Positions 6,262-40,978 of a stretch of DNA of 64,000 bases are shown one piece after another. This DNA comes from an uncultured bacterium (GTDB lineage Bacteria > Patescibacteriota > Minisyncoccia > Moranbacterales > UBA2206): NCBI GenBank assembly GCA_903831805.1, contig CAIKZD010000014.1, positions 2,078-66,077 of the forward strand, written 5' to 3'. The notes under the pieces are model-generated. The model saw only the letters and a list, made by a program, of their open reading frames with translations, made no database searches and was not told the DNA's origin. The translations under genes and the position numbers were made by a program. Position 1 is the first letter of the stretch; every line of letters begins with the position of its first letter.

Positions 6262-7560
6262 ATGCGGACCCTTAACTTTCCTAACCATAATAAAAGAACT
6301 ATTTTAGCCCTCGGCGCCGAATCCGCCGGCAATTTTTCCATATATAAAAATGGAAAAATATATTTTTCCGCAGACTTCGGAGACTTATTAGAAGAGAATA
6401 ATTTTATTGCTTTCAAAAAAGCCGTTTTGGTTTTTTTAAAAAAAGAGAAAATTACCCCGGATATTATCCTCACTGATTTGCATCCCCTCATGAAAACAAC
6501 TTTGTGGGGTGAAGAATTGGCCCAAAAATACTCCGCCAAAGGCGGATCCGCCTCTGGCGGAAAGGCTGAACATATCCAGGTCCAACACCACCACGCCCAT
6601 ATTTTTTCTGCCATCGGAGATTATCTTTCCCCCTCCTCTGTACCCAGGGGAGGGCTGGGGAGGGGTTCTGGAAATTTACCCAACACTTTATTTACCATCG
6701 CCATGGACGGCACGGGCTACGGCGAAGATGAAAAAATTTGGGGCGGAGAAATTTTCAAAGTCACCTCAAAACCCTCTCCCCTTGTACTCAGGGGGAGATG
6801 TCCGGTACTCCGGACAGAGGGGGTTCGTGTTGAACGCATCGGCCACCTAGAAAACCAAACAATGATTGGCGGAGAACTGGCTATCCGCGAGCCAGCTCGC
6901 ATACTGATTGCCATTTTATCCAAATTCCTATCCAAAAAAGAAGTTTTTAATTTTGTCAAAAAATATTATTCAAAAAATGAATTTGAATTACTGCACAGTC
7001 AACTTGGGCAAAATTTCAACTGCCTGGAAACATCCAGCACCGGAAGGATTTTAGATGCTATATCTTTACTATTAGGTTTTTGTGGCAATGTTAGAAAGTA
7101 CAAGCACGAACCAATCGACCTTTTGGAAAAAAATTCCACCGAGCCATACATCTTTAAACCAATTATAGAAAATAACATCTTGCAAACTACGCCACTTTTT
7201 GCATATCTAATAAAAAATATCCACCAAAACAAAAAACGCCTCGCCGCCACGGCGCAATTATATATCGCAAAGGGTTTACATGAAATAATTCAATCATATT
7301 GTCATCCTGAGCGGAGTCTGTACTCGGACGCAGTCGAAGGATCTGCCAATGAACACTACCAGCAATGCCACAAAGCAGATTCTTCGACTTCGCTCCGCTC
7401 CGCTCAGAATGACAGCATCTTCTTTTCCGGCGGCCTCGCCAGCAATAAAATAATTTCAGTTTACTTAGAATCCCAAGGCGCCTACGCTTCAAAAATAGTC
7501 CCGCGCGGAGACAATGGGTTAAGCTTTGGACAAATAGTCTATTACTTATTGAAAAAATAA
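6262..7560 (+). CDS. hypF: HypF-like carbamoyltransferase, Kae1/YrdC-type C-terminal domain only (no acylphosphatase or Zn-finger domains); carries 3 in-frame palindromic insertions
   Basis: ILALGAESAGNFSI, IQVQHHHAHI, AMDGTGYGEDEKIWGGE, GGELAIREPARI and a C-terminal GGLASNK...PRGDNGLSFGQ all match the HypF C-terminal domain. Length 432 aa versus about 750 for full HypF. Confidence 0.75.
   Translation: MRTLNFPNHNKRTILALGAESAGNFSIYKNGKIYFSADFGDLLEENNFIAFKKAVLVFLKKEKITPDIILTDLHPLMKTTLWGEELAQKYSAKGGSASGGKAEHIQVQHHHAHIFSAIGDYLSPSSVPRGGLGRGSGNLPNTLFTIAMDGTGYGEDEKIWGGEIFKVTSKPSPLVLRGRCPVLRTEGVRVERIGHLENQTMIGGELAIREPARILIAILSKFLSKKEVFNFVKKYYSKNEFELLHSQLGQNFNCLETSSTGRILDAISLLLGFCGNVRKYKHEPIDLLEKNSTEPYIFKPIIENNILQTTPLFAYLIKNIHQNKKRLAATAQLYIAKGLHEIIQSYCHPERSLYSDAVEGSANEHYQQCHKADSSTSLRSAQNDSIFFSGGLASNKIISVYLESQGAYASKIVPRGDNGLSFGQIVYYLLKK
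6630..6690. repeat. GC-rich palindromic insertion inside hypF reading frame (encodes SPSSVPRGGLGRGSG)
   Basis: cccctcctctgtacccaggggagggctggggagggg forms cccctcc/ggagggg arms. It interrupts the conserved HypF block between AIGDY and TLFTIAMDGTGYG. Confidence 0.6.
6770..6835. repeat. Second palindromic insertion in hypF, related to the 6630 copy, with a nested tgtccggtactccggaca hairpin
   Basis: aaccctctccccttgtactcagggggag...gagggggtt. It shares a ccctcYcc..tgtacYcaggggRag core with the 6630 element and encodes KPSPLVLRGRCPVLRTEGVRV between conserved GGEIFKV and ERIGHL. Confidence 0.6.
7300..7415. repeat. About 116-bp palindromic element (TGTCATCCTGAGCG...CGCTCAGAATGACA termini) inserted in-frame in hypF
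   Basis: Left arm tgtcatcctgagcggagtctgtactcggacgcagtcgaaggatctg, right arm cagattcttcgacttcgctccgctccgctcagaatgacag. It is homologous to the intergenic element at 19270-19409 and encodes CHPERSLYSDAVEGSANEHYQQCHKADSSTSLRSAQNDS. Confidence 0.75.
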
Positions 7561-7561
7561 T

Positions 7562-7610
7562 TGTCATTCCTGCCCCCGCCTAAGCGAGGATAAACTCCGG
7601 CAGGAATCCA
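7562..7610. repeat. Small palindromic element (GTCATTCCTGCC...GGCAGGAAT) immediately after hypF stop
   Basis: cattcctgcc / ggcaggaatc 10-bp arms. Same terminus family as 38458-38512 and 40950-40978. Confidence 0.6.
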
Positions 7611-7649
7611 GTCTCCTATCTTAGAAATTTAATATTTTTCAAAATTAAA

Positions 7650-7679
7650 GGGCCTTGTGTGGAATACAACACAAGACCC
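7650..7679 (-). terminator. Rho-independent terminator for minus-strand gene 7728-8171
   Basis: gggccttgtgt ggaataca acacaagaccc hairpin; on the minus strand it is followed by tttaatttt. Confidence 0.5.
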
Positions 7680-7727
7680 TCTTATACACAGCTGCAATAA
7701 TCACCAAACATGATGATTATCTTCTTC

Positions 7728-8171
7728 CTACTCATCAGGCTTAACTTTCATCTCGCCGATCCGCAAAATAGCAATGCGTTCGCCTGGCGCCTGACGATCA
7801 TATTCTGGGCCTAATTTTGGCGGATTAAGATTAACCGAGGTTTCATATCCTGAAACCATGCCAATGACAATCTGGATTATCCATAAAATCTGGTCTATGC
7901 CCTCAGCTTCCGCCAAGCAATCAGATAGCATAAAAAGACAACCTCGCTCTTTCTCTGATTTACCTATTCCTACCCACAAACCACGTCCATCTCTAACAGG
8001 AATTATTGATGGCCCGGTTTTTTTCCCGTCAGTACGAGTACCCTGAAAAATCCAGAGTTCATCTCCTGGCTTGCCCTTTCCAAAGATGTAGCTAATTTTT
8101 GAATCTTTTTTATCAATTTTCGTCCCAATTACTATACCAGGACAAGTCAACTCATGCTTCTTATCTCCCAT
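7728..8171 (-). CDS. hypothetical protein in hyp cluster
   Basis: ORF MGDKKHELTCPGIVIGTKIDKK... with no recognisable motif. It has its own terminator and sits between hypE and divergent hypF. Confidence 0.45.
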   Translation of the reverse strand: MGDKKHELTCPGIVIGTKIDKKDSKISYIFGKGKPGDELWIFQGTRTDGKKTGPSIIPVRDGRGLWVGIGKSEKERGCLFMLSDCLAEAEGIDQILWIIQIVIGMVSGYETSVNLNPPKLGPEYDRQAPGERIAILRIGEMKVKPDE

Positions 8172-8286
8172 AACATCCCTCCTTATCACTTATATATTTT
8201 ATGGTTTTGGAAATAAGCTCCCGTAAGAACACGACGAATTGTAAAACAGCTGCAACTATATATACTATATTAAAATAACATTTTTG

Positions 8287-9306
8287 TCAACAAATCCTCG
8301 GCACCAACTTCCCCCGTGGCACTTCTATGCGGCGCAGTCCGCCGAGTTCAGTTTTAACAAAAACCCCATTGCCGCGAAAAGTCTGGCCGATAACCCTCGC
8401 TTCAGGATTAAATTTTTGCAAAATGCTTAAAACTTTTTTGACATTTTTCGGCGCCACCGAAGCGATAAACCGCCCTTCAGACGCCAAAGAAAAAATATCA
8501 AGTCCCAAAAGTTCTGTCACAGCCACTGTTTCTTTCTTATACGGCAAAGTTTTTTCGTCCAACACCACTTTAACGCACGACTTCTCCGCCATCTCATTCA
8601 AGTTAGCGGACAGTCCGCCGCGCGTCGGGTCTTTACAAGCGTTGAGATATTTTCCCACTTTTTCAATTTCGCGGTGAAGCGGCGTGCAATCGCTTTGAAT
8701 TTTAGTTTTGTAATTAAAGCGCTTAGCCAAAAGTGTCACTGTGTGTTCACCCAAATCGCCGGAAGAAATGACATAGTCACCCGTTTGCATACCGCCATTC
8801 GAAATGATATTTTGCGCGAGACCCACGCCACTGGTAGTGATTTCAATCTTATCTATTTTACCTTTCTCCGTCACTTTCGTGTCGCCTGTCACAATCGGCA
8901 CGCCAGTTTCGCGGGAAACTTGGCCAATGGACGCCATGATTTTTTTCAAATCATTCATCGGAAATCCCTCTTCCAAAACAATACTAAGGCCAATTCCAAT
9001 CGGCCGTGCGCCCATCATCGCCAGATCATTGATCGTCCCACACATCGCAATCTTCCCAATATTCCCGCCCGGAAAGAAAATCGGATCCACAATAAAGGCA
9101 TCGGTCGTGAAGACCAAATTGCCTGCATCCGTAGAGACGCGATTAATCGCGTCTCTACCCAAGCTAAACACCGCCCCATCATCCCCCGTATTTTTCCACT
9201 TCGATTTCACGGTGAAATTCTTCCTGATTTCTGCAATGATTTCGGCCGATTTCTTCCCTCCACCACCGTGCTCGAGAGTCACCTTGTCAGATTGTTTTGT
9301 TGCCAT
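8287..9306 (-). CDS. hypE: hydrogenase maturation carbamoyl dehydratase HypE
   Basis: PurM-like fold signatures and the characteristic C-terminal PRIC. Confidence 0.88.
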   Translation of the reverse strand: MATKQSDKVTLEHGGGGKKSAEIIAEIRKNFTVKSKWKNTGDDGAVFSLGRDAINRVSTDAGNLVFTTDAFIVDPIFFPGGNIGKIAMCGTINDLAMMGARPIGIGLSIVLEEGFPMNDLKKIMASIGQVSRETGVPIVTGDTKVTEKGKIDKIEITTSGVGLAQNIISNGGMQTGDYVISSGDLGEHTVTLLAKRFNYKTKIQSDCTPLHREIEKVGKYLNACKDPTRGGLSANLNEMAEKSCVKVVLDEKTLPYKKETVAVTELLGLDIFSLASEGRFIASVAPKNVKKVLSILQKFNPEARVIGQTFRGNGVFVKTELGGLRRIEVPRGKLVPRIC

Positions 9307-9386
9307 AATGTTTTAAACATTTTTACTTATAGATTTCGGATTTTATTTGAAATTTTTAATTTAATATTTGAAATTTAAAAAGTATA

Positions 9387-10427: not shown

Positions 10428-10435
10428 GCGGACAG

Positions 10436-10469
10436 TCTGCTGTAATCAGCGGACTGTCCGCGCTCTTTT
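10436..10469 (-). promoter_or_regulatory. Strong hairpin in hypC-hypD intergenic spacer
   Basis: gcggacagtc tgctg taat cagcg gactgtccgc has a 10-bp perfect outer stem and no U-tract. Possible processing or attenuation site. Confidence 0.35.
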
Positions 10470-10486
10470 AAATTTCTCTATTCGCA

Positions 10487-10850: not shown

Positions 10851-10852
10851 TT

Positions 10853-19203: not shown

Positions 19204-19250
19204 GGCCGCCTTGTGAACAGTATTATCGTTCACTGGGCGGCTTTTTTTAT
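19204..19250 (+). terminator. rho-independent terminator
   Basis: ggccgcc...gtgaac...gttcac...ggcggc compound hairpin followed by ttttttt. Confidence 0.6.
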
Positions 19251-19269
19251 TTCTCAAAAAACTACTTAT

Positions 19270-19409
19270 CTGTCATCCTGAGCGAAGTCCGCACTCGGAC
19301 GCAGTCGAAGGATCTGTTCTGTGTTACCACTAGATCTATAAACATAACAGCGCCAGTGGCAACCTAAGGCAGATTCTTCGACTTCGCTGCGCTACGCTCA
19401 GAATGACAA
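19270..19409. repeat. About 140-bp palindromic element, intergenic copy of the family inserted in hypF (7300-7415)
   Basis: tgtcatcctgagcgaagtccgcactcggacgcagtcgaaggatctg...cagattcttcgacttcgctgcgctacgctcagaatgacaa matches the hypF copy arm-for-arm with a different central loop. Confidence 0.75.
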
Positions 19410-19419
19410 CGTAAAAAAT

Positions 19420-20178
19420 TTATCTCGTCAGAATTTCACAGCCATCTTTTTTCACCAAAACTGTATCTTCAAAGTGCGCGCTGAGTTTGCCGTCTTTTGT
19501 GGCGTATGTCCAGCCGTCGGAAAGGATTTTTATATAATGCGTCCCTTCATTGATCATCGGCTCCAAAGCCAGGGTCATCCCGGCTTGCAGAACCACATCA
19601 TTCCCCTTACAGCTATAGTTGGGAATCTGCGGATCTTCGTGCAACTGCCTCCCGACGCCATGCCCCACTAGGTCCCGAATAACTGAAAAGCCCTGCGCCT
19701 TGGCATAATCCTCCACGGCGGCCGAGTATTCGGAAATATTGGCGCCGGCTTTGATTTTTTTGATGCCTGCATCCAGCGCCTCGCGCGTAGCTTCCGCCAG
19801 TTTATGCGCCACGGGTGCCACTGCCCCCACGGAAAAAGTGCGCGCCATGTCCGTAATCAGCCCGTCAATTTCAATGCCCATATCAATTTTCACAATGTCC
19901 CCGCTTTGGATGATTTTTTGCTCACTCGGAATGCCATGCACAATTTCGGAATTAATTGAGGCACAAATGGCCGCCGGATAGGGGTTGTTTTTTTCACCGT
20001 AGCCCAAGAAAGCCGCTCGTCCCCCACTACGAAAAACAAGCTCAGATGCAAGCTTGTCCAATGCGAGCGTACTTACGCCAGGCGCAATTTTTTGCCCCAC
20101 GGCGTCCATAATTTCCGCCAGGATCTTTCCCCCTCGGCGCATCGCCGCTATTTCTTTTTCATTCTTGATGACTATCAT
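19420..20178 (-). CDS. map: methionine aminopeptidase type I
   Basis: MIVIKNEKEIAAMRRGG..., pita-bread metal ligands (D, D, H, E, E pattern) and VGHGVG motif. Confidence 0.88.
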   Translation of the reverse strand: MIVIKNEKEIAAMRRGGKILAEIMDAVGQKIAPGVSTLALDKLASELVFRSGGRAAFLGYGEKNNPYPAAICASINSEIVHGIPSEQKIIQSGDIVKIDMGIEIDGLITDMARTFSVGAVAPVAHKLAEATREALDAGIKKIKAGANISEYSAAVEDYAKAQGFSVIRDLVGHGVGRQLHEDPQIPNYSCKGNDVVLQAGMTLALEPMINEGTHYIKILSDGWTYATKDGKLSAHFEDTVLVKKDGCEILTR

Positions 20179-20197
20179 ATCACTTAAATAATTTTTT

Positions 20198-20845
20198 CTA
20201 AATCCCCAGCTTATCCAAAATATCATCGAACACGGCTTCAATTGATTGATTGCCGCTGATTTCAATCAGCTTCTGTTGATCTTTATAATATTCCACGACC
20301 GGCAGTGTTTCTTCTTTGAAAACTTTCAGCCGCGTGATAATTCCTTCCTTCGTATCATCCGTCCGCTGGATAATTTTCCCCCCACACTCGGAACATTTTT
20401 CTTCCACACTTTGGATATCCTTCCCCATGATGAAAACTTTTTTGCATTTGCTGCACAGAAGTCTCTTGGAAATCCTCTTCAGTGATTCTTCTTCTGACAA
20501 ATTGATGAGAATCGCCGCATCGGTTTGGCGACCAAACTCACTCATGGCTTTTTCAAAATATTGAGTCTGGTCGGCGTTACGTGGGAACCCATCAAACACA
20601 ATCGACTTCTCCCGTGGGAGACTGTTCAATTTTATCGTAAAAACTTCTTCCAAAATTCTGGCCGGCACTAGTGTCTTGGTCACATTCTGAATTTGCCAGA
20701 CTTCTTGGCCGAGCGGGGTAGGCATTTTCGCCACCTCGCGCAAAAATTTCCCCATATCTATATGTTCGGCGTCCAGCCTCTCTGCCAATTTTTCCGCTTG
20801 CGTCCCCTTACCGCTCCCTTGTGGACCAAAGATTATTATGTTCAT
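20198..20845 (-). CDS. adk: adenylate kinase (zinc-lid type)
   Basis: IFGPQGSGKGTQA P-loop and lid CSKCKK...CSECGG. Confidence 0.88.
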   Translation of the reverse strand: MNIIIFGPQGSGKGTQAEKLAERLDAEHIDMGKFLREVAKMPTPLGQEVWQIQNVTKTLVPARILEEVFTIKLNSLPREKSIVFDGFPRNADQTQYFEKAMSEFGRQTDAAILINLSEEESLKRISKRLLCSKCKKVFIMGKDIQSVEEKCSECGGKIIQRTDDTKEGIITRLKVFKEETLPVVEYYKDQQKLIEISGNQSIEAVFDDILDKLGI

Positions 20846-33625: not shown

Positions 33626-33665
33626 CAGACGTAGAGACGCAGCACTGCTGCGTCTCTACGCTGCG
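33626..33665 (-). terminator. hairpin terminator downstream of giant surface protein gene
   Basis: cgtagagacgcagca ctgctgcgtctctacg is a perfect 15-bp inverted repeat. It shares the GTAGAGACG core with the palindrome at 39706-39734. Confidence 0.5.
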
Positions 33666-33670
33666 CGAAT

Positions 33671-36600
33671 CTACCACCCAAATAAATTTCTAGTCAACGT
33701 CCCGAAATTCCCGGTCGGTAAGATATTTCTCAGTTGTTGCAGTTTAGTGACCGCTTGTTGGGTGAGACTTTTGTAAACTCCATAGGTGGTGTCTTTGATT
33801 TTTAAGAGGCCCAGTTTTTGGAGGGCTGTTTGCAAAGCACCTACGTCTTGACCTTGCGAGCCAAGACTGAGATTACGGTTAATAGTGACACTTTGTTTGT
33901 GGAACCATTTTTTAGTAGCCGTGATCTTTTGGGTGAATTTCTGTTGGAAAGTTTTGGGCTTAGGTTTCTTATGGTGGGTCTGGTGGTGATGGCTACTACT
34001 GGAAGACGTGGTAACAATGGCCGCTTGAGTAATAGTGAAACTGACGGTCGTAGCATTATTGGCGGCGTCAGTCACAATAAGAGTGTAGATGCCAATAGCT
34101 GAGATGGCTGTGCCGGAAGTGTAGGGGTCGCCATTCAGGGTAGCGGTGCCTTCGGTGAAGGTGGGGGCTTGGGGAGTGGTGTAGGTTTGGCCGTCAATCA
34201 CCCTCATTACAACTGGCGGAATGATGTCGATGATGACACTCGCACTAAGGCTGCTTGAAACATTGCCCGCCGCATCTTTGGCCCAAGCGTGGAGGGTTTT
34301 GGAACCGGCAGAGGAGAAGTTATAAGAAGAAGGCGCGCTTCCCGTCCATCCAGCGTCCCCAGAAGCAGGGGCAGAAGATGACTCGGTAACCATACAGCCA
34401 GCCACCGCAATATCATCAGTAGCGGTAAAGGTGGTTATTGGAACTGTGGGTGAATTGGAAATGGCAGGAATACTGAAAGCAGTGACAGTCGGGGCAGATG
34501 AGTCTAGAGATGTCATTGATAAATTTATACTTTTTGTGCTGTCCATAGTTGCTTGGGTTGATGCGTCATTAAAACCCGTTTTCGAAACAGTAATAGTGTG
34601 GGGTGTATATTGATTATAATTAGAAGTCGCCGGATATGTGACTCCATATCGCTTGAATTGAGTAAGTGTTAAACGCGCGTTCCCTGAACCGTCGGTCGTT
34701 CCGGAAACAGTTTCGGCCGCTCCGCCAGTCGCGTTGACCGTAACAGTTGCGCCAGAAATTGGTAAGCTAGTCGATGAATTTTGGACATTAACGTTCAAAT
34801 ACCATTTGGTGTACAGACTGTAATTTCCCCCGCCAGAACCAGCCAGCGCTAGATCGTCCCCGCTGGCACCATTTTGCCAATTGTTATCAATGAAGTTGTT
34901 TTCGGTTGCACTATTCGTCCAATATCCAGCACGAATTGAATTAAATCCATGGGGATTTGTGCCTTTAATGAATGTATTGGAAACTACGTTGAAATTGCTT
35001 CCGGCTCCGTCAGGACCGTTAGCGTCTACAATTAGAGAATTGCTTGTGACCGTGTTATTGTGAAAAGTTGAACTGCTGTCAGCGGTACCATCAAGGTATA
35101 AACCAGCTGCCGTGAGTGTAGCATCGGTTGTTTCTACTGTCACTGTATTGTTATAGATCTGATTATTAACAGCATATTGTCCGCCGACAACTTTAATGCC
35201 CTCAGCAATACAATCATTACCTGTTTGAGTCGGAAATTGCGACGGACAGGCATTTAATCCAGCATGGGCAGTAATCGTATTGCTATAAATCTGCACGTCA
35301 TGAGCGCCAAACCTTAATTGAATGCCAACGTCTGTTCCCGGCGTTCTCAAATATTCTCCTGAGTCTTCTGCTTCTCGCACATCTATATTATTGTCATGGA
35401 CTGTCCCCAATCCAGGCCCAGGACTATCTGCATTATAATTGCCTGCAACAAGTATCCCGCGGCCGGAACTTTGGACTATAGTATTATTGGCAATCTCAAA
35501 ATCTATATTGTCGTTACTTCCACTTCCTATTGAAATGGCATAGCCATCTCTTACCGTAGCCGCCATTTTTATGGTGTTATTGTTAATATGCAAAGTGTCG
35601 GTGAGAGCTCCCACGTAACCAAAACCTATGCCTGAACATCCTGTTCCATCAATATCGTTATTGTAAATATCAACATTTCCAGTTGAACTAACTGTGATTG
35701 TATTAAAACCACCATAATGAGTTGCGCCATAAGTTACGTTAAGCAGTAGTCCTCCTGCTTCGGCCACACTACAGTTACTAGTTGGCGGAAGGACAGTATA
35801 ACCACCATTATCATATGGGCTTACACTAGTCACTACTCCGCCGGAACTAACCCCACTAACAGTAAAGACACCAGCCGATGTTCCCGTGCCTCCAACCAAA
35901 GTAACGTGCTGTCCTACGCTATAGACACTTCCTCCGTTTGCAATAGTCGCATAAACTGCTCCTGTGGCTCTTTTGGTTCCATTCGGATGAATAACATTGT
36001 CATGAATTTGGACGCTTTGGCCTCCCGCGCCGTTGGTATCAATAATCGCCTCGTTATTATCACCCGTATAGCTAATAGACAGATGATCAGCTTCAATATT
36101 CACCCCTTGCCTAAAATAAATCGCGATGCTTTGATAACCATTTCCTGCTCCCTGGACAAAACTGCCATTGGTTACTCTGGCTCCGTTCGGATTCCAGGCT
36201 GACAAATAGCCATAGACGCTATCACCTGCGGCGGTGTTATATGTAACAGTGTGCCCGTTCAGGTCGAGTATTGTGCCGTTGGCGGACGTAGTGAAACAGG
36301 TTCCGGCTGAAGAAACATCATTGTCTAAAATGTAGGTTGTATTGGCCGAACTCAATGTCCCGCAAGCGCTGATATGCGTAATGATCGCTGTAGTAGATAG
36401 TGATGAAGATAAAGCGCTGGCAATATCGGTGGGAGCTAAGACACCATCCCCGTTCTTAGCTTGCGTGCTGAAAGTATAGGAAGTACTGGCGCTAAGTCCC
36501 GTCACATTAATTGCAATTCCGCTCGGATTCCAGGTTGCCGCAGTTTGCCAGACCGGACTGGTTCCCAAAGAACCATCAGCCTGCGTATATTTAGAGTCAG

Positions 36601-38272
36601 TTGCATCGTAAATCGCATAAGTCGTATTGGCAGGATTATTATTAGCACTAATGACGACTCCGATTGATGACCAGGAATTCGTGCCGGCAGAAAGCGTCGG
36701 GGTGCTTGGAGCGTTCGCCAACGTGGTAAAAGCCTGACAGGAACTGGTTCCAGTACCCTCAGGATTGGTGGCGTAGGCAGTGTAATGGTAGACAGTATTC
36801 ACAGACATGGCACTACTGTTAGAAAGGGAATAGACACCCGCCCCATAATTTCCATTTTCGTGGGGACTCTGGATTGGAGATCCACTGCAATCGCTGGAAG
36901 TATAAATATTGAATCCCCGTTCGGTAGCCTCTTGGCCCTGAACATCGGTGATGTTGCCGTTAAAAGTGGCCGAGCTAGCTGTCACATCGGTAGAATCTGA
37001 GCCCGTCAAAATTGGCACAGCTGACAAAGTAGTGAAGCTTTGGCAGGAGCTAGAACCAGAACCTCCACTGTTTATGGCGTAAGAAGTATATGAATATTGG
37101 GTTTGAGCGGTTAAACTAGTAATATCCTTACTAAATACACCGGTATTATATGAGCCCCCAGTATCTTTGGGATTTTGGATGGAACCACCCGAACAAGTTC
37201 CCCCACTATATAGATTGAATCCCCGTTCAGTAGCGTTTTGGCCGCCGGTATCGCTGATATCCCCGTGGAGCGTGGCAGTTGTTGTAATAATCGGATTAGC
37301 TGCCGAAACGGTAACGGTCGGCGCTGACGCCTGCCCGGCAAATGTCTTAAAAACAATGTACTGATAGACCTTAGTGTTCCAGTTCACATTAGAGCTGGCT
37401 CCGATTTGAAATCCATCTGCTTCTAATGCTTGGACTAAATCAGCAGCAGGAGGACCACCTAATTGATCTAGCTCAGGCGTCAGATCATCCACCCAACTGC
37501 TCGTACGCCAATTAGTATACCCACCCGCGCTCGACGCTCGAACCAATGCAGCATTGGGTTGAAAACCTACACCGATGATTGATCGATTATCGGCGCCGTT
37601 ACCCGTATACGTTCCCACTTTAATGTAACCAGCGTGGTTTTTAAAAGCTAGATAATAGTAAACAGTAGTGCTTTGATTTACTCCAGCAGCAGTACCTACC
37701 GTAAAACCGTCAGTATCAAACGACTGAATTTGATCGGCGGCTTCAGAAGAGCCGTAAGCGAGATTTACGGAAGCATCCCCAACTTCCGTTGACCACCTCG
37801 CCACACCACTTGTCCAAGTATTCCCGCCTGCCTTCGTTAATACAAAATCCGGTTGAAAACCAACGCTGGTAATCTGACGATTATCAGAGCCATCTCCAGT
37901 ATACGTGCCAATGTGAAAATCTCCGCCGCTATTATCTTTCCAGGCGGTCCATTGATAAGTGGCTGTGCTTTTGTTGACTGAAGCATTTGTACCCAAGGTG
38001 AAACCATCCGAGTCAAGTGTCTGAATAATATTTGACGCAGAAGGTTGGCCTACAGCAATTGGAATAGAGTAATCGCCCACCATCGCTGAAGACCGAAATT
38101 CCGGCATCTGCCCTTCTGAGGTACAAACAATCAAAACCGCACTGGGCTGGAAACCAATCCCGATTATTGGTCGATTATCATTACCATCTCCGGTATAAGT
38201 TCCGACAGCCATTTGCATCTGGCCGCTAGCATGAGCGGTTTTCGGATAATTAAAGACAAAAAAACTTCCCAA
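33671..38272 (-). CDS. giant (1533 aa) secreted cell-surface protein: N-terminal tandem ~85-aa repeats, Ig/Fn-like repeats, right-handed beta-helix region, C-terminal peptidoglycan-binding domain
   Basis: Four GTYTGDGxDNRxIxxVGFQP...DxDGFTxGT..VNxSTxxYxYxAWK repeats and three ~95-aa repeats with ATERGFNxY...C. There are many N-x-(N/T/D)-rich beta-helix rungs. The C-terminal LGSQGQDVGALQTALQKLGLL...GNFGTLTRNLFGW matches the PG_binding_1 fold. The annotated TTG start at 38272 gives a poor signal peptide. Confidence 0.8.
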   Translation of the reverse strand: MGSFFVFNYPKTAHASGQMQMAVGTYTGDGNDNRPIIGIGFQPSAVLIVCTSEGQMPEFRSSAMVGDYSIPIAVGQPSASNIIQTLDSDGFTLGTNASVNKSTATYQWTAWKDNSGGDFHIGTYTGDGSDNRQITSVGFQPDFVLTKAGGNTWTSGVARWSTEVGDASVNLAYGSSEAADQIQSFDTDGFTVGTAAGVNQSTTVYYYLAFKNHAGYIKVGTYTGNGADNRSIIGVGFQPNAALVRASSAGGYTNWRTSSWVDDLTPELDQLGGPPAADLVQALEADGFQIGASSNVNWNTKVYQYIVFKTFAGQASAPTVTVSAANPIITTTATLHGDISDTGGQNATERGFNLYSGGTCSGGSIQNPKDTGGSYNTGVFSKDITSLTAQTQYSYTSYAINSGGSGSSSCQSFTTLSAVPILTGSDSTDVTASSATFNGNITDVQGQEATERGFNIYTSSDCSGSPIQSPHENGNYGAGVYSLSNSSAMSVNTVYHYTAYATNPEGTGTSSCQAFTTLANAPSTPTLSAGTNSWSSIGVVISANNNPANTTYAIYDATDSKYTQADGSLGTSPVWQTAATWNPSGIAINVTGLSASTSYTFSTQAKNGDGVLAPTDIASALSSSLSTTAIITHISACGTLSSANTTYILDNDVSSAGTCFTTSANGTILDLNGHTVTYNTAAGDSVYGYLSAWNPNGARVTNGSFVQGAGNGYQSIAIYFRQGVNIEADHLSISYTGDNNEAIIDTNGAGGQSVQIHDNVIHPNGTKRATGAVYATIANGGSVYSVGQHVTLVGGTGTSAGVFTVSGVSSGGVVTSVSPYDNGGYTVLPPTSNCSVAEAGGLLLNVTYGATHYGGFNTITVSSTGNVDIYNNDIDGTGCSGIGFGYVGALTDTLHINNNTIKMAATVRDGYAISIGSGSNDNIDFEIANNTIVQSSGRGILVAGNYNADSPGPGLGTVHDNNIDVREAEDSGEYLRTPGTDVGIQLRFGAHDVQIYSNTITAHAGLNACPSQFPTQTGNDCIAEGIKVVGGQYAVNNQIYNNTVTVETTDATLTAAGLYLDGTADSSSTFHNNTVTSNSLIVDANGPDGAGSNFNVVSNTFIKGTNPHGFNSIRAGYWTNSATENNFIDNNWQNGASGDDLALAGSGGGNYSLYTKWYLNVNVQNSSTSLPISGATVTVNATGGAAETVSGTTDGSGNARLTLTQFKRYGVTYPATSNYNQYTPHTITVSKTGFNDASTQATMDSTKSINLSMTSLDSSAPTVTAFSIPAISNSPTVPITTFTATDDIAVAGCMVTESSSAPASGDAGWTGSAPSSYNFSSAGSKTLHAWAKDAAGNVSSSLSASVIIDIIPPVVMRVIDGQTYTTPQAPTFTEGTATLNGDPYTSGTAISAIGIYTLIVTDAANNATTVSFTITQAAIVTTSSSSSHHHQTHHKKPKPKTFQQKFTQKITATKKWFHKQSVTINRNLSLGSQGQDVGALQTALQKLGLLKIKDTTYGVYKSLTQQAVTKLQQLRNILPTGNFGTLTRNLFGW

Positions 38273-38325
38273 TAAAATTGCGAAGAGAAAAACAAAATTA
38301 ACAAAAGTTTTTAGCGTCCTATTTC

Positions 38326-38342
38326 GAGAGAGAGAGAGAGAG
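38326..38342 (-). repeat. (GA)8G / (CT)8C dinucleotide simple-sequence tract between an ATG and the signal-peptide coding region of the giant gene
   Basis: + strand gagagagagagagagag at 38326-38342; the ATG (minus strand) is at 38358-38356. Removing one CT unit fuses that ATG in-frame to MHEKFTLSLSRNRTLKTFVNFVFLFAILLGSFFVFNYPKTAHA|SGQ... Confidence 0.8.
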
Positions 38343-38457
38343 TAAATTTTTCATGCATTTTTGTTTTTATTATAAAAAGTTTTATGTGTATTTGTCATAC
38401 TCGCGTATGCGGGTATCCAGTCGCTAAGTAATAAGTTTCTACACTAGATTCCTGCCC

Positions 38458-38512
38458 GCTTCGCCATAGCTCCAGCGAGGCGAGCCTGCGCAGGAATGAC
38501 ATATTGACTGTT
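38458..38512. repeat. palindromic element (TTCCTGC...GCAGGAATGACA family) between ORF6N gene and giant gene
   Basis: gattcctgcccgcttcgccatagctccagcgaggcgagcctgcgcaggaatgacat. Confidence 0.55.
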
Positions 38513-38570
38513 TTTAGTATATCAAATTTTGGAGTTTTCACAAAATAGCATTGCGTAAAAAATACTTCTT

Positions 38571-39101
38571 TCATCCTTTGAAACCTATCGGCGACTGCGG
38601 CTTGATGTCTTTCTCTTTTGTTTCTATAATAGACTTTATCGCGTCAAAAACTATCTTGAACTTGTTGTCATATTTCTTTTCCATCAACTCGATCTTAGCT
38701 TGTAAATCCTTATGGCTAGAGAGTACTTCGCGCAATTTTATGAAAACCCGAACGATTTGAATACTCACTCCAATGGCAATCTCACTCTTTAATACTGCCG
38801 ATAACATCATCACGCCTTGCTCTGTAAAAACATAAGTCCTATATTTAGAATATTTCCCCATTTCTAAGGTACCAAATTGGTACCTTAGAAATTCTGTTTC
38901 TTTTTTATCCAATTGAAACATGAAGTCTTCAGGAAAACGTGATATATTCCTTTTAACAGCTCTATTGAGCGCTTTGGTTTCCACGCCATAAAGCTCCGCT
39001 AAATCACGATCAAACATCACCTTTTTGCTACGAATATAATATATTTTCCCCATTATCCTTTCAAATGGAATAGCCGATACTGCTTTTTGTTTTTGTTTCA
39101 T
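38571..39101 (-). CDS. ORF6N (KilA-N-like) domain protein
   Basis: KVMFDRDLAELYGVETKALNRAVKRNISRFPEDFMFQL matches the ORF6N DNA-binding domain found in phage antirepressor-like proteins. Confidence 0.7.
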   Translation of the reverse strand: MKQKQKAVSAIPFERIMGKIYYIRSKKVMFDRDLAELYGVETKALNRAVKRNISRFPEDFMFQLDKKETEFLRYQFGTLEMGKYSKYRTYVFTEQGVMMLSAVLKSEIAIGVSIQIVRVFIKLREVLSSHKDLQAKIELMEKKYDNKFKIVFDAIKSIIETKEKDIKPQSPIGFKG

Positions 39102-39136
39102 TGCGCTAAGTTTTATTTTATTACAATGTTATTCTA

Positions 39137-40432
39137 TCACTCTTTTATTTTTCCGCAAGCTGTCCCGGCTGCATGTCCCGTGCTCCAGGCTATCTGCAAA
39201 TTGTAGCCGCCAGTTGGGCCGTCGAGATCCAAGACTTCGCCAACTAGATACAGGTTGGGCACAATTTTAGAACGCAGCGTTTTCGGCTCGACTTCTTTCA
39301 GGTCCACTCCGCCGCGCGTCATCATTGCTTGCTCAAAGCCGGTGTGGCCGATGACCGTCAGGCGCAGATCTTTGAGCAAACTTACAATGCACGCCCGCTC
39401 AAGCTTAGTAACGATATTGATTTTTTTCGCTGGCAAAATATCCGCCAGGCGCAAGATAATTTTCGCCAGCTTGGGCGGACATAGTTCAGGCAAGTAATTA
39501 AGGATATCTTTATTGGCAAATTTTATGAAATCTTTTTGCAAAAATATATCCAGTGCCTTTCTATCTATTTCCGGTTTTAAATCTATAGAGATGGAAAGTG
39601 GCATGTTTTCCGGTGTAAATTCCGTTATCTTCCGACTGAGGTTCAAAACCGCCGGACCACTGAGACCGAAATGGGTGAAGATCGCATCGCCCATTGTAGA
39701 GACGAGGCAGTGCCTCGTCTCTACGGGTAATTTACCGCGCACTAAACTAATCTTAACATTTTCCAAACTCACGCCCTGCGCTTCTTTGACCCATTTTTCC
39801 TGAATCTTTAGAGGCACCAACGTCGGCATGGGCGTGATAATTTTATGTCCGCAATCGCGCGCCCATGAATATCCGTCCCCCGTCGCACCGGTCGCCGGAT
39901 AAGACTTTCCACCGCTGGCCAGGATAAACTTTTTGGCATGAATAATTTTATTTTTCAAACGTACCCCTGTGATTCTTTTTTGATTGCCGTCCTCCGAAAA
40001 CTCAAAGCCTAAAACTGTCGCACCGAACAAAATTTCCACTCCATTTTTTTGCAAATAATTTTTGAGTGCCCGCAAAACATCCGCGGCTTTATCTGACACT
40101 GGAAAAACTTTTCCTCCCTTTTCAATCTTAGTCGGCACTTTTCGCTCGGCCAAAAAATCCATCATTTCTTGCGGCCCGAACAGACTAAGCGAGGAAAAAA
40201 GAAATTTTCCCTTCTTACCAATTTCTGCCACTAATTTTTTATCGTCAAACTCAGCCTGCGTCACATTGCACCGCCCGCCGCCCGTCATCAAAAGTTTATT
40301 CCCCAAGCTTTCATTTTTTTCCACCAAAAGCACCCGCGCGCCCAATTCCGCGGCCCTCCCCGCCGCCATCATCCCAGCTGGCCCGCCGCCGATGACGATG
40401 ACATCATATTGTTGATTCTTCAATTTTCTCAT
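39137..40432 (-). CDS. HI0933-like FAD-dependent oxidoreductase (aminoacetone oxidase family) with in-frame palindrome insertion
   Basis: YDVIVIGGGPAGMMAAGRAAELGARVLLVEKN...GGGRCNVTQ N-terminus and a C-terminal GxVLDLDGPTGGYNLQ(I)AW motif. Confidence 0.8.
   Translation of the reverse strand: MRKLKNQQYDVIVIGGGPAGMMAAGRAAELGARVLLVEKNESLGNKLLMTGGGRCNVTQAEFDDKKLVAEIGKKGKFLFSSLSLFGPQEMMDFLAERKVPTKIEKGGKVFPVSDKAADVLRALKNYLQKNGVEILFGATVLGFEFSEDGNQKRITGVRLKNKIIHAKKFILASGGKSYPATGATGDGYSWARDCGHKIITPMPTLVPLKIQEKWVKEAQGVSLENVKISLVRGKLPVETRHCLVSTMGDAIFTHFGLSGPAVLNLSRKITEFTPENMPLSISIDLKPEIDRKALDIFLQKDFIKFANKDILNYLPELCPPKLAKIILRLADILPAKKINIVTKLERACIVSLLKDLRLTVIGHTGFEQAMMTRGGVDLKEVEPKTLRSKIVPNLYLVGEVLDLDGPTGGYNLQIAWSTGHAAGTACGKIKE
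39706..39734. repeat. 29-bp perfect palindrome inside the HI0933-like CDS (encodes VETRHCLVST)
   Basis: gtagagacgaggca g tgcctcgtctctac. Confidence 0.65.
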
Positions 40433-40436
40433 AAGA

Positions 40437-40853
40437 TTAAATATCCATCTCTAAATACTCGCGTGCACTGAACAATAGATCTAATTTCAAAACATCTTCT
40501 TTTTTCATCCAGCGCAATTCTTTTATCTTTGGATCTTGGGTTTTGAGCTCTCCTGATATGGCTTTACACGTATAACAAAAAATCAAAGTATGTTGAAAAT
40601 ATCCAGGCAGCTCCCAATTCTTACAAATACTTTTCGGCAAAAATTCTTTAATTTCTATCTCAAGTCCCGATTCCTCTCTTGTTTCGCGGCGAAGTGTCTC
40701 TTCCAGCGACTCGCCCATCTCATTTTTTCCACCGACAAAATCCCACTTAAGATGGGCTTCGGGAAACCTTGGGTCATTGCGAAGTGACACCAGAACCTCG
40801 CCTTTTTTATTTTCAATAAGTCCTAAGACTACGACAATTGATTTCTTTTCCAT
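40437..40853 (-). CDS. Nudix hydrolase
   Basis: Nudix box GGKNEMGESLEETLRRETREESGLEI. Confidence 0.85.
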   Translation of the reverse strand: MEKKSIVVVLGLIENKKGEVLVSLRNDPRFPEAHLKWDFVGGKNEMGESLEETLRRETREESGLEIEIKEFLPKSICKNWELPGYFQHTLIFCYTCKAISGELKTQDPKIKELRWMKKEDVLKLDLLFSAREYLEMDI

Positions 40854-40949
40854 ATTTAGATTGTTTCACGAAAGCGCTAGATTGTAAAATTTTATTTCCA
40901 ATTCAAACAAAAACAGCCCTACATCTCTGCCAGGCTGTTTTTATATATT

Positions 40950-40978
40950 TGTCATTCCTGCCTACGCAGGAATGACAG
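40950..40978. repeat. perfect hairpin element tgtcattcctgc ctac gcaggaatgacag downstream of fusA (likely terminator)
   Basis: 12-bp perfect stem, same terminus family as 7562 and 38458. Confidence 0.6.

What the first reader, a model, noticed from the sequence alone, without database searches (positions are those of the whole stretch)
7300..40978. Family of small palindromic (MITE/REP-like) elements with TGTCAT(T)CCTG... termini scattered through the window
- **Copies with TGTCAT terminus.** 7300-7415 (in hypF), 7562-7610 (just after the hypF stop), 19270-19409 (between a terminator and map) and 40950-40978 (after fusA; perfect hairpin tgtcattcctgc ctac gcaggaatgaca). The 7300 and 19270 copies have long arms (tgtcatcctgagcg-N-agtcgaaggatctg / cagattcttcgacttcgct-N-cgctcagaatgaca) with different loops.
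- **Partial copy.** 38458-38512 (between ORF6N and the giant gene) has ttcctgc...gcaggaatgaca and lacks the left TGTCAT.
- **Variants.** The shorter ones end ...ttcctgc(c) N ggcaggaa...
- **Interpretation.** This looks like a proliferating, strongly structured repeat family that doubles as terminators when intergenic. Such mobile hairpins are not well catalogued for CPR lineages.
Basis: seen in the sequence. Interest (0 to 1): 0.55.

Follow-up and report, generated by a model that had tools for sequence, protein, structure and literature searches.

The report
Nuclease-target hairpin repeats in a CPR genome
The scattered TGTCAT hairpins are real copies of a repeat class already known from Neisseria and Rickettsia, the hairpins that small GIY-YIG "Ssn" nucleases cut in single-stranded DNA; here they sit in a candidate-phyla-radiation (CPR) bacterium, one copy in frame inside a working gene.

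Summary
The window carries six element loci made of ten tagged arms.
- Inverted doublets: 7300-7414 (in frame inside a HypF-like gene), 19271-19408, and a mixed doublet 38393-38501.
- A single unit at 7562-7611.
- A symmetric hairpin at 40950-40977.

Each unit has an unpaired TGTC tag, a stem that starts with AT, a loop, the return stem, and usually a C. This is the anatomy of the "CGTC/TGTC-tagged REPs" (Di Nocera 2013: Neisseria dRS3, Rickettsia RPE-4/-6). It is also the anatomy of the NTS/SRM hairpins that flank small GIY-YIG ssDNA nucleases and are cut by them (Ssn family, Chenal 2025).

I found the nuclease link independently. The arm sequence occurs in at least 14 phyla. In 80 metagenome loci of one GIY-YIG clade, tagged units lie within 150 nt of the gene in 52-65% of loci, against 2-3% further away.

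The same 115-nt doublet sits in recG of another CPR genome at 94% identity. A syntenic relative lacks two of the window's insertions.

None of the copies is a T-tract terminator, none has target-site duplications, and no ssn gene lies in the 71 kb examined.

Verdict: a known kind. The new points are the host lineage and a long-loop variant that the published search pattern misses. How the repeats copy themselves remains unknown.

The parts
7300..7414 (.). 115-nt inverted doublet, tags outward. Left unit 7300-7345 (+): TGTC-ATCCT-GAGCGGAGTCTGTACTCGGACGCAGTCGA-AGGAT-C. Right unit 7372-7414 (-), of the TGTCATTCTGAGCG type. About 30-nt loop between them.
   Evidence: Single-stranded DNA fold -31.3 kcal/mol, z = -6.5. 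In frame inside the HypF-like ORF. 94% identical to the recG copy in L039.
6262..7560 (+). Host gene: HypF-like protein with the Kae1-like domains only, 432 aa, inside a NiFe-hydrogenase maturation cluster. It carries the doublet as 38 extra residues in the loop before the ...FFSGG... strand.
   Evidence: Pfam HypF_C 4e-20 and HypF_C_2 7e-40. 120 homologues of 357-500 aa; the closest one (P0002, 63% identity) has no insertion at this site. Gene neighbourhood.
7562..7611 (+). Single unit two bases after the hypF stop: TGTC-ATTCCTGCC-24 nt loop-GGCAGGAAT-CCAG.
   Evidence: Fold z = -4.1. No T-tract. Absent from syntenic L260, where hypF and hypE are 5 nt apart.
19271..19408 (.). 138-nt inverted doublet with the same arms as 7300-7414 (93% identity) and an unrelated 53-nt loop. 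Intergenic, between a conventional terminator (19226-19249) and the 3' end of map (19420-20265, minus strand).
   Evidence: Fold z = -5.5. The terminator scan calls only the neighbouring hairpin.
38393..38420 (+). Single unit TGTC-ATACTCGC-GTAT-GCGGGTAT-CCAG (8-bp stem with one T.G pair, 4-nt loop, CCA tail). It is the left half of a 109-nt mixed doublet.
   Evidence: The only match in the window to the published SRM pattern; 0.12 expected in Markov simulations. Sequence. It resembles NTSvar, CGTCATACTCGGG-N5-CCCGAGTATC (PMC11893778).
38447..38501 (-).
40950..40977 (.). Perfect 28-nt symmetric hairpin TGTCATTCCTGC-CTAC-GCAGGAATGACA (12-bp stem, 4-nt loop). It carries the tag on both strands and lacks the C after the palindrome. 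It lies 8 nt past the fusA stop (fusA 40985-43075, minus strand).
   Evidence: Fold -12.8 kcal/mol, z = -8.6. Not called as a terminator, no T-tract.

Best explanation
**What they are.** These are TGTC-tagged hairpin repeats of the superfamily described as CGTC-tagged REPs. That superfamily includes Neisseria dRS3/NTS, Rickettsia RPE-4/-6 and the 'Ssn-related motifs' (SRM).

**Anatomy.** Each unit has an unpaired 5' (T/C)GTC tag, a stem whose first two pairs are A-T and T-A, a loop, the return stem, and usually a C.

**How they most likely work.** When the DNA is single-stranded (replication, transformation, repair), the unit folds. A roughly 95-aa single-domain GIY-YIG nuclease of the Ssn type binds the hairpin. 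It nicks that strand a few bases 5' of the tag.

**Gene association.** In many genomes the nuclease gene sits between two such units with tags outward, an insertion-sequence-like cassette. Gene-less units and gene-less inverted doublets are dispersed around the chromosome. The window holds only gene-less forms: one single unit, three doublets and one symmetric hairpin.

**Spread.** The doublet behaves as a copyable unit, much as REPINs do for RAYT transposases. Insertions that keep the reading frame in a surface loop survive inside genes, as Rickettsia palindromic elements do.

**Shown here.**
- The anatomy, and covariation in the stem.
- The cross-phylum spread.
- The association with the GIY-YIG gene.
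- The same doublet at non-homologous sites.
- Absence of two insertions from a syntenic relative.

**Taken from the literature.** ssDNA-specific binding and cleavage by Ssn, and which bases matter.

**Inferred.**
- That this genome has, or once had, a cognate nuclease.
- That the nuclease drives copying. No one has shown the copying step.
For: **1. Anatomy.** All ten tagged arms start with TGTC then AT. Eight are followed by C after the return stem; the two strands of the symmetric hairpin are not.

**2. Covariation.** In 259 non-redundant units anchored only on GTC and the loop core, stem positions 2-5 pair in 84-97% of units. With shuffled partners they pair in 47-84%. Position 3 shows C-G, T-A, G-C and A-T.

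**3. Spread.** They represent at least 14 phyla, including three CPR lineages.

**4. Unbiased neighbour search.** All-against-all comparison of ORFs near those hits gave one recurrent family, a small GIY-YIG protein. In five loci it is bracketed by the units in inverted orientation. A viral contig has a perfect 30-nt inverted repeat, TGTCATTCTGAGCGAAGCGAAGAATCTCTC, on both sides of the gene.

**5. Eighty metagenome loci of that GIY-YIG clade.**
- The tag GTCAT-N2-4-GAR lies within 150 nt upstream in 40 of 77 loci.
- Its reverse complement lies within 150 nt downstream in 47 of 72.
- More than 500 nt away the figures are 3 of 102 and 2 of 102.
- The commonest flanking type is GTCAT-CCT-GAG, the window's long-arm type (22 loci).
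- One member (L235) is preceded by the NTS-like TGTCATTCCCACGAAAGTGGGAATCC, the window's short type.

**6. Literature.**
- PMC3733652 defines CGTC REPs: the tag is often TGTC, the stem starts with AT, the tail is CCA, and dimers and intragenic copies occur.
- PMC11893778 shows that NTS/SRM units flank ssnA.
- It also shows that SsnA binds and cuts only the ssDNA form, a few bases upstream of the tag.
- The GTC is critical for cutting, and the C after the palindrome is critical for binding.

**7. Mobility of the doublet.**
- The window's hypF copy is 94% identical to the recG copy in L039, loop included.
- It is 86% identical to the copy at the orthologous hypF site in L261.
- Flanking hypF DNA is 68-70% identical between the window and L261 or L259.
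- A further copy sits at a different hypF site in L258.

**8. Presence or absence.** Syntenic L260 lacks the intragenic doublet and the 7562 unit.
Against: - No ssn/GIY-YIG gene lies in the window or in the 7 kb beyond its right end (tblastn). A cognate nuclease in this organism is therefore unproven.
- Only one of the ten arms matches the published SRM search pattern.
- None of 131 long-type units and none of my 80 GIY-YIG loci matches that pattern. The pattern does match NTS and NTSvar as implemented.
- I could not obtain the Neisseria SsnA sequence. That my GIY-YIG clade belongs to the Ssn family (cd10448) rests on three things:
  - size;
  - single-domain architecture and flanking tagged hairpins;
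  - identical spacing of the catalytic Tyr-Tyr-Glu residues (7/18/65 in P0224 against 6/17/64 in SsnA).
- The long arms alone fold no better than shuffles (z about 0 and +1.7).
- A nuclease is not a transposase, and no strand-transfer activity is known for this family. On one strand of a doublet only one arm is in the cleavable orientation, so simple excision is not explained.
- Palindrome arms can also stay complementary through intrastrand repair rather than selection.
Confidence: 0.75

Rival explanations
1. Same repeat family, but inert in this genome. The copies are relics of past invasions. No cognate nuclease remains, and they persist only because they are harmless in loops and spacers.
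For: - No GIY-YIG gene in 71 kb.
- The hypF insertion is shared at one site by several orthologues whose host proteins are only 55-59% identical, so it looks old.
Against: - The arms of the two long copies in the window are 93% identical.
- The hypF copy is 94% identical, loop included, to a recG copy in another genome. Flanking hypF DNA compared between the window and its orthologues is about 69% identical. This points to recent copying, transfer or ongoing homogenisation.
- In PMC11893778, 81% of genomes with more than 200 SRMs encode an SsnA homologue.
Confidence: 0.3
2. Host-selected structural elements: transcription terminators, mRNA-stabilising hairpins or other RNA motifs kept in place by selection, rather than copies of a selfish repeat.
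For: - Four of the six loci lie just downstream of genes or between convergent genes. PMC3733652 reports the same pattern for REPs.
- Strong hairpins.
- Stem covariation.
Against: - No T-tract at any copy. The scan calls none of them, and it calls a conventional terminator beside the 19271 copy.
- One copy is translated inside a gene.
- Rfam gives nothing at gathering threshold or up to E = 5.
- Two copies are absent from the syntenic relative.
- The same sequence recurs in unrelated contexts in at least 14 phyla.
- SsnA does not bind the RNA form (PMC11893778).
Confidence: 0.08
3. REP/REPIN-type elements mobilised by a RAYT or another IS200/IS605-like Y1 (HUH) transposase acting on single-stranded hairpins.
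For: - The overall logic is the same: a tagged hairpin, inverted doublets, and no target-site duplication.
- PMC3733652 left open that RAYTs might mobilise CGTC repeats.
Against: - The tag is TGTC, not GTAG.
- The only ORF family recurrent next to the units in 119 loci is GIY-YIG, not a Y1 transposase.
- PMC3733652 found no RAYT or IS200 gene flanked by CGTC units.
Confidence: 0.05
4. Classical MITEs: internally deleted insertion sequences moved in trans by a DDE transposase that recognises the TGTCAT...ATGACA terminal inverted repeats.
For: - Terminal inverted repeats that begin TGT...ACA, as in several DDE families (my own knowledge).
- Size of 115-138 nt.
Against: - No direct repeats flank any of about ten inspected doublets or cassettes.
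- Single units with only one tagged end are the majority: 104 of 126 units in the genome loci have no inverted partner.
- No transposase gene was found between such ends.
Confidence: 0.03

Closest known systems
NTS / Ssn-related motifs (SRM) and the Ssn family of GIY-YIG ssDNA nucleases (Chenal et al., Nat Commun 2025, PMC11893778)
   Same: - An oriented hairpin with a conserved xGTC just 5' of a stem that starts with AT, and a C after the stem.
- Hundreds of copies in some genomes.
- Units flank a roughly 94-aa single-domain GIY-YIG gene in the arrangement unit-gene-unit.
- 38393-38420 matches the SRM pattern, and the TGTCATTCC... units resemble NTS (CGTCATTCCCGCG...).
   Different: - The window's long arms have a 5-bp stem and a conserved loop of at least 12 nt (GAGCGRAGTCGA), with an optional nested hairpin. 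They do not match the SRM pattern (0 of 131 units).
- The host is a CPR bacterium, a group not mentioned in the paper's main text.
- No ssn gene was seen in the 71 kb examined.
- Cleavage was not tested here.
CGTC-tagged REP superfamily, including Neisseria dRS3 and Rickettsia RPE-4/-6 (Di Nocera et al., BMC Genomics 2013, PMC3733652)
   Same: - Unpaired tag, with TGTC listed as a frequent variant.
- AT as the first two stem positions.
- 8-9 bp stems with 4-5 nt loops (38393-38420; the AT-initiated stem of 40950-40977).
- CCA tail (7562 and 38393 units).
- Dimers.
- Copies inside genes, often DNA-repair genes. Here the genes are hypF and, in L039, recG.
   Different: - Loops of 24 and 34 nt in two short units.
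- The long arms fall outside the four described families.
- The phylum is new relative to the five listed there.
- That paper found no dedicated enzyme.
REPINs and RAYT transposases (Pseudomonas and E. coli REP doublets)
   Same: An inverted doublet of tagged hairpins acts as the copyable unit. The single-copy enzyme gene sits between such units. There are no target-site duplications.
   Different: The tag is GTAG there and TGTC here. The associated enzyme is a Y1 HUH transposase there and a GIY-YIG nuclease here, with no known joining activity.
Rickettsia palindromic elements (RPE-1 type; Ogata et al. 2000, from my own knowledge)
   Same: Palindromic repeats inserted in frame into genes that remain functional, adding a peptide segment in a tolerated loop.
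   Different: RPE-1 is longer and unrelated in sequence. The window's intragenic copy is a doublet of tagged units.

Membership tests
CGTC-tagged REP superfamily (PMC3733652) | Unpaired 5' tag CGTC, often TGTC or CCTC | tested here: met
   All ten tagged arms begin with TGTC.
CGTC-tagged REP superfamily (PMC3733652) | The stem starts with complementary A-T and T-A pairs | tested here: met
   True of every arm in the window. Among 259 related units, position 2 forms a Watson-Crick pair in 84% and position 1 is A in nearly all.
CGTC-tagged REP superfamily (PMC3733652) | Stem of 8-9 bp with a loop of 4-5 nt (short units) | tested here: inconclusive
   Met by 38393-38420 (8 bp, 4 nt) and by the AT-initiated stem of 40950-40977 (8 bp, 4 nt). 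The stem is met but the loops are 24 and 34 nt in 7562-7611 and 38447-38501.
CGTC-tagged REP superfamily (PMC3733652) | Stem of 8-9 bp with a loop of 4-5 nt (the four long arms) | tested here: not met
   The stem is 5 bp (ATCCT/AGGAT or ATTCT/AGAAT) and the loop is 23-30 nt in the window, 12 nt in the basic form elsewhere.
CGTC-tagged REP superfamily (PMC3733652) | Short unpaired 3' tail, mostly CCA | tested here: inconclusive
   CCA at the 7562 and 38393 units; CTA at the 38447 unit; CTG at the long arms; GAC at 40950.
CGTC-tagged REP superfamily (PMC3733652) | Many dispersed copies per genome, often as inverted dimers, some inside genes | tested here: inconclusive
   Six loci, three of them dimers and one intragenic, in 64 kb. 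The whole genome was not available.
Ssn-related motif (SRM) / NTS (PMC11893778) | Match to HGTCWYN(0-2)YYVSBRHN(0-5)WNVSBRGN(0-2)RNCYNB | tested here: not met
   Only 38393-38420 matches. The other nine arms, 131 long-type units and 80 GIY-YIG loci give no match. The pattern as implemented does match NTS and NTSvar.
Ssn-related motif (SRM) / NTS (PMC11893778) | GTC immediately 5' of the palindrome (needed for cutting) and C immediately 3' of it (needed for binding) | tested here: met
   GTC is present in all ten arms and the C in eight; the two strands of the symmetric 40950 hairpin have G instead. C follows the stem in 159 of 259 related units.
Ssn-related motif (SRM) / NTS (PMC11893778) | Units of the same type flank a small single-domain GIY-YIG (ssn) gene | tested here: met
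   Met in other genomes: five genome loci, L131, and 40 of 77 and 47 of 72 metagenome loci against 2-3% at a distance. GTCAT-CCT-GAG is the commonest flanking type. L235 carries the short type.
Ssn-related motif (SRM) / NTS (PMC11893778) | A cognate ssn gene in the same genome | not testable with these tools
   None in the window or in 7 kb beyond it. The rest of the genome could not be fetched.
Ssn-related motif (SRM) / NTS (PMC11893778) | Bound and cut by the nuclease as ssDNA only, a few bases 5' of the tag | not testable with these tools
   This needs biochemistry.
Ssn nuclease family (cd10448): are the flanked GIY-YIG genes I found members? | About 94 aa, GIY-YIG domain only, catalytic Tyr6/Tyr17/Glu64, assignment to cd10448 | tested here: inconclusive
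   - Proteins of 90-105 aa with PF01541 as the only Pfam domain (a minority also carry PF10544).
- Tyr7/Tyr18/Glu65 in P0224, the same spacing as in SsnA.
- The nearest solved structures are UPF0213 proteins, at only 1e-6.
- No CDD search and no SsnA sequence were available.
MITE derived from a DDE-transposase insertion sequence | Target-site duplications and a parent element that encodes a transposase | tested here: not met
   No flanking direct repeats. No transposase gene was found between such ends.
REP/REPIN mobilised by RAYT | GTAG tag, and a RAYT gene flanked by the repeats | tested here: not met
   The tag is TGTC. No Y1-transposase family recurs next to the units.
Intrinsic (Rho-independent) terminator | A GC-rich hairpin followed directly by a T-tract | tested here: not met
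   The scan calls none of the six loci and no T-tract follows any of them.

The most novel reading that the evidence does not exclude
The most novel reading my evidence leaves open has three parts.

1. The long-loop 'GAGCG...GTCGAAGG' units form a major class of Ssn-type target hairpins found across phyla. They were the commonest type around the GIY-YIG clade I sampled, and the published SRM pattern does not see them.
2. Their gene-less inverted doublets are the actual copyable unit, a REPIN analogue for a nuclease rather than a transposase.
3. In CPR bacteria these doublets, together with several other palindrome families, are being written in frame into surface loops of core proteins often enough to account for part of the well-known length inflation of CPR proteins.

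Supporting counts:
- The HypF-like family alone shows such inserts at about 15 loop sites.
- At least 8 apparently independent TGTCAT-type inserts all use the same reading frame (Cys-His-...).
Probability: 0.35. Interest if true: 0.55.

Novelty: new variant of a known kind. Interest (0 to 1): 0.4.

Why it matters
**What it extends.** It places a recently characterised nuclease-and-hairpin system (Ssn/NTS), and the older CGTC-REP catalogue, in the candidate phyla radiation. Repeats there have hardly been described.

**A gap in the published search pattern.** The published pattern misses a whole class of units: a 5-bp stem with a conserved GAGCG...GTCGAAGG loop. These units surround the same kind of nuclease gene in many phyla.

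**Consequences for annotation.**
- Peptides such as CHPERS...VEGS and ...SLRSAQND inside CPR proteins are repeat insertions, not domains.
- Spurious small ORFs made of these repeats can be masked.

**The open question.** How a bare nuclease could spread its own target sites remains unknown. The 115-nt doublet found at three independent sites, in hypF and recG, gives a concrete substrate for testing this.

Tried and rejected
- **Rfam.** The gathering threshold over the whole window found only a tRNA. Searches up to E = 5 on 7250-7650 and 19230-19440 gave only chance microRNA-like hits.
- **Terminator scans.** None of the six loci was called.
- **Target-site duplications.** None was seen at the window copies, at doublets in other genomes, or at GIY-YIG cassettes.
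- **GIY-YIG gene nearby.** tblastn found nothing in the window or in 7 kb beyond it.
- **ORF 7728-8189.** This unknown 153-aa ORF is part of the indel next to the 7562 unit. It has no Pfam hit and no similarity to the GIY-YIG profile.
- **Relaxed tagged-hairpin search.** It gave 8 hits against 2.9 expected. The best extra candidate, 46372-46404, is native conserved recA sequence ([13 protein letters not shown]), so I rejected it as chance.
- **GIY-YIG genes in viral contigs.** Of 33 loci, only one (L131) has the tagged inverted repeats. The phage-type proteins of about 80 aa are a different group.
- **Literature searches.** The exact arm sequence and 'GIY-YIG plus terminal inverted repeats' returned nothing relevant. 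The link came from a search on the CGTC tag.
- **Supplementary files of PMC11893778.** Not held.
- **Protein look-up for 62776-63762.** It failed, probably because the called start differs.
- **Unit type against protein similarity.** The correlation is significant but tiny: 62.2% against 60.8% identity, 2 of 500 permutations. I do not lean on it.

Full report
**1. What is in the window**

*Two long copies.* They lie at 7300-7414 (115 nt) and 19271-19408 (138 nt).
- Each is an inverted pair of arms.
- The left arms (46 nt) and right arms (43 nt) are 93% identical between the two copies, and the loops are unrelated.
- The arm motifs occur nowhere else in the window. They are far above chance: 4 matches against 0.70 expected, and 0 of 100 shuffles reached 4.

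*Short copies.* The motif TGTCATTCCTGC occurs exactly four times: at 7562 (+), at 38490-38501 (-), and on both strands of the 40950-40977 hairpin.

*Folding.*
- As single-stranded DNA the doublets fold with z = -6.5 and -5.5.
- The short hairpins at 7562 and 40950 fold with z = -4.1 and -8.6.
- A single long arm folds no better than shuffles, and the 38450-38501 fragment gives z = -0.9.

*Two corrections.*
- The 'partial copy' is a complete unit on the minus strand (38447-38501).
- It has an overlooked partner at 38393-38420 (+). Together they make a 109-nt mixed doublet with tags facing outward.

**2. Anatomy of a unit**

Every arm reads: TGTC, then a stem that begins with AT, then a loop, then the return stem ending in AT, then usually C.

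- Short units have 8-9 bp stems (ATTCCTGC(C), ATACTCGC).
- Long arms have a 5-bp stem (ATCCT/AGGAT on the left, ATTCT/AGAAT on the right). The stem encloses GAGCG-R-AGTC...G-N-AGTCGA, with a small nested hairpin.
- In both long copies the two arms differ at exactly the positions that keep each arm's own stem complementary.

Covariation supports the stem. In 259 non-redundant related units, anchored only on GTC and the loop core, stem positions 2-5 pair in 84-97% of units. With shuffled partners they pair in 47-84%. All four Watson-Crick pairs occur at position 3.

**3. Context in the window**

*The intragenic copy.*
- The 7300 copy lies in frame in ORF 6262-7560, a HypF-like protein with only the Kae1-like domains.
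- The gene sits in a NiFe-hydrogenase maturation cluster.
- The insert reads CHPERSLYSDAVEGSANEHYQQCHKADSSTSLRSAQND and precedes the conserved FFSGG strand.

*The HypF-like family.* The 120 homologues, all from CPR, range from 357 to 500 aa. Palindrome-derived peptides occupy about 15 loop sites.
- At this particular site many lineages carry an insert that begins Cys-His (TGTCAT) and ends Asn-Asp, Met-Thr or His-Asp (...ATGACA).
- The interiors of these inserts differ, and their positions shift by one to three residues.
- The closest homologue, P0002, has no insert at this site.

*The other copies* are intergenic:
- 7562-7611 starts two bases after the hypF stop.
- 19271-19408 lies between a conventional terminator and the 3' end of map.
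- 38393-38501 lies between the ORF6N gene and the 1533-aa gene.
- 40950-40977 lies 8 nt past the fusA stop.

None has a T-tract, and none is called as a terminator. Rfam has nothing for them.

**4. Relatives elsewhere**

- They come from at least 14 phyla. Examples are Acidobacteriota, Bacteroidota, Bacillota, Pseudomonadota, Verrucomicrobiota, Eremiobacterota and Planctomycetota.
- Three CPR lineages are among them.
- Most units are solo. Of 126 units, 22 have an inverted partner, giving doublets of 66-219 nt.

One hit, L039 from a Parcubacteria-group genome, is the same 115-nt doublet as window 7300-7414, loop included. It sits in frame inside recG.

**5. The associated gene**

*Genome loci.*
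- An all-against-all comparison of ORFs within 2.5 kb of the hits gave one recurrent family, a small GIY-YIG protein.
- In all five loci the gene is bracketed by the units in inverted orientation with tags outward.
- In about 1 Mb of these loci there are seven GIY-YIG genes. Five of them lie within about 115 nt of a hit.

*Viral contigs.* One contig has a perfect 30-nt inverted repeat, TGTCATTCTGAGCGAAGCGAAGAATCTCTC, on both sides of the gene.

*Family size.* The family is very large: 7991 of 8000 candidates scored E <= 0.001, and every listed hit carries PF01541.

*Eighty metagenome loci of this clade.*
- The tag GTCAT-N2-4-GAR lies within 150 nt upstream in 40 of 77 loci.
- Its reverse complement lies within 150 nt downstream in 47 of 72.
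- More than 500 nt away the figures are 3 of 102 and 2 of 102.
- The commonest flanking type, GTCAT-CCT-GAG, is the window's long-arm type.
- One member (L235) is preceded by TGTCATTCCCACGAAAGTGGGAATCC, the window's short type.

*Strain variation.* Different assemblies of one gut or rumen population vary in the number of units and carry one or two gene copies at a single locus.

**6. What the literature already says**

*Di Nocera et al. 2013 (PMC3733652)* defined CGTC-tagged REPs.
- The tag is often TGTC.
- Stems are 8-9 bp and start with AT; loops are 4-5 nt.
- The tail is CCA, the units mostly occur as dimers, and some copies lie inside genes.
- The class includes Neisseria dRS3 and Rickettsia RPE-4/-6.
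- The authors noted that these repeats 'lack a dedicated transposase'.

*Chenal et al. 2025 (PMC11893778)* gave the functional link.
- The Neisseria unit NTS (CGTCATTCCCGCGMAVGCGGGAATCYRG) and related 'SRM' hairpins flank ssnA, a 94-aa single-domain GIY-YIG gene.
- SsnA binds and cuts only the single-stranded form of the tagged strand, a few bases 5' of the tag.
- The GTC matters for cutting, and the C after the palindrome matters for binding.
- RNA and duplex DNA are not substrates.
- The unit-gene-unit layout resembles an insertion sequence.

So the gene association in section 5 is an independent rediscovery, not a new finding.

**7. Where the window departs from the published descriptions**

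- Only 38393-38420 matches the published SRM pattern.
- None of 131 long-type units and none of my 80 GIY-YIG loci matches it. The pattern as implemented does match NTS and NTSvar.
- The long arms also fall outside the four CGTC families: their stem is 5 bp and their loop is at least 12 nt.
- The main text of the Ssn paper mentions neither CPR nor intragenic copies.
- I found no paper on such repeats in CPR.

I therefore file the short units as members of the known superfamily. The long arms and their doublets are a variant of it.

**8. Evidence for copying**

| Comparison | Identity |
|---|---|
| Window hypF doublet vs recG doublet in L039 (loop included) | 94% |
| Window hypF doublet vs orthologous-site copy in L261 | 86% |
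| Window hypF doublet vs copy at a different hypF site in L258 | 71% |
| hypF DNA flanking the insert, window vs L261 or L259 | 68-70% |

- The syntenic contig L260 shares the gene order from murD through hypC.
- It lacks the intragenic doublet.
- It also lacks the 7562 unit and the adjacent unknown ORF: its hypF and hypE are 5 nt apart.
- No target-site duplications were seen anywhere.

These facts fit repeated insertion plus a filter for in-frame, loop-located events. They could also reflect homogenisation between copies. They do not fit conserved in-place terminators.

**9. Mechanism and its limits**

The best-supported reading is that these are recognition hairpins for an Ssn-type nuclease acting on single-stranded DNA.

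*Not shown:*
- That this organism has such a nuclease. None lies in 71 kb.
- How a nuclease with no known joining activity would copy its sites.

*Homology caveat.* That my GIY-YIG clade is homologous to Neisseria SsnA rests on four things:
- size;
- domain content;
- flanking hairpins;
- identical spacing of the catalytic residues.

The nearest solved structures are UPF0213 proteins, at only 1e-6.

**10. Verdict**

The finding is real and correctly spotted, and it belongs to a known kind. The terminator idea and the MITE label do not hold. The residual interest lies in three things: the new host lineage, the long-loop variant that the published search pattern misses, and the density of in-frame palindrome insertions in CPR proteins.

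Noticed in passing
window 6536-6563, 6628-6667, 6772-6830: Three more palindromic inserts of other families lie inside the same HypF-like ORF. They encode ...GGSASGG..., ...SVPRGGLGRGS... and ...PSPLVLRGRCPVLRTEG.... The GGSASGG peptide recurs at a different site in three other homologues (P0008, P0012, P0042). About 70 of this protein's 432 residues appear to come from repeats.
   Followed up: partly
window 33630-33668 and 39687-39725: A second palindrome family, CGTAGAGACG-N-CGTCTCTACG (82% complementary between the two sites). One copy is intergenic, just past the stop of the 1533-aa gene. The other is in frame inside the HI0933-like flavoprotein gene 39137-40432 (-), where it encodes LPVETRHCLVSTM.
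   Followed up: partly
HypF-like homologues P0001-P0120; L039 recG: Every intragenic TGTCAT-type insert I saw is read in the frame TGT CAT (Cys-His...). There are at least 8 apparently independent events at 5 or more sites in hypF, plus recG. The frame GTC ATC CTG (Val-Ile-Leu...) is also free of stop codons but was never used.
   Followed up: no
window 7612-8286, including ORF 7728-8189 (-): Compared with syntenic L260, the window has about 720 extra bases between hypF and hypE. They consist of the 7562 unit and a 153-aa ORF. The ORF has no Pfam hit and no similarity to the GIY-YIG profile.
   Followed up: partly
L083 781-1440 (Flavobacterium soyae): Two tandem copies of a different small GIY-YIG gene. 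Each is followed by a duplicated 3' fragment of a tRNA gene, next to an intact tRNA. This looks like a tRNA-targeting GIY-YIG cassette, distinct from the hairpin-flanked kind.
   Followed up: no
L104, L181, L186, L195, L200, L250 (flanks of GIY-YIG genes): Tandem arrays of 20-30-nt repeats, each starting with TGTCAT (for example TGTCATCTCGAACTCCCACC repeated several times), lie beside many of the nuclease genes. They look like strings of tags with half-stems rather than full hairpins.
   Followed up: no
L165-L174 (contigs that encode the identical protein P0224): One locus, between an ABC permease gene and a CzcB-like gene, varies among assemblies. It holds one or two GIY-YIG gene copies and one to three unit modules, which suggests recombination or copying within populations.
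   Followed up: partly
window 63767-63813: A perfect 23-nt palindrome (AACCTAAAGCTCGGCTTTAGGAA / TTCCTAAAGCCGAGCTTTAGGTT) with one base between the arms. It has no TGTC tag.
   Followed up: no
window 43105-43213: A 54-nt AT-rich imperfect palindrome (74% complementary) in the spacer upstream of fusA.
   Followed up: no
window 36901-38203 (inside the 1533-aa ORF 33671-38272, minus strand): Diverged repeats with a period of 294-306 nt (70-73% identity), that is, repeated domains of about 100 aa. The protein carries DUF7483 and a C-terminal peptidoglycan-binding domain. A (GA)n run lies at about 38326-38343, upstream of its start.
   Followed up: no
window, whole length: GC skew is negative in every 8-kb bin and most genes are on the minus strand. 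The window probably lies within one replichore, with the plus strand as the lagging strand. This would matter for a nuclease that acts on single-stranded DNA, but there are too few single units to test orientation.
   Followed up: no
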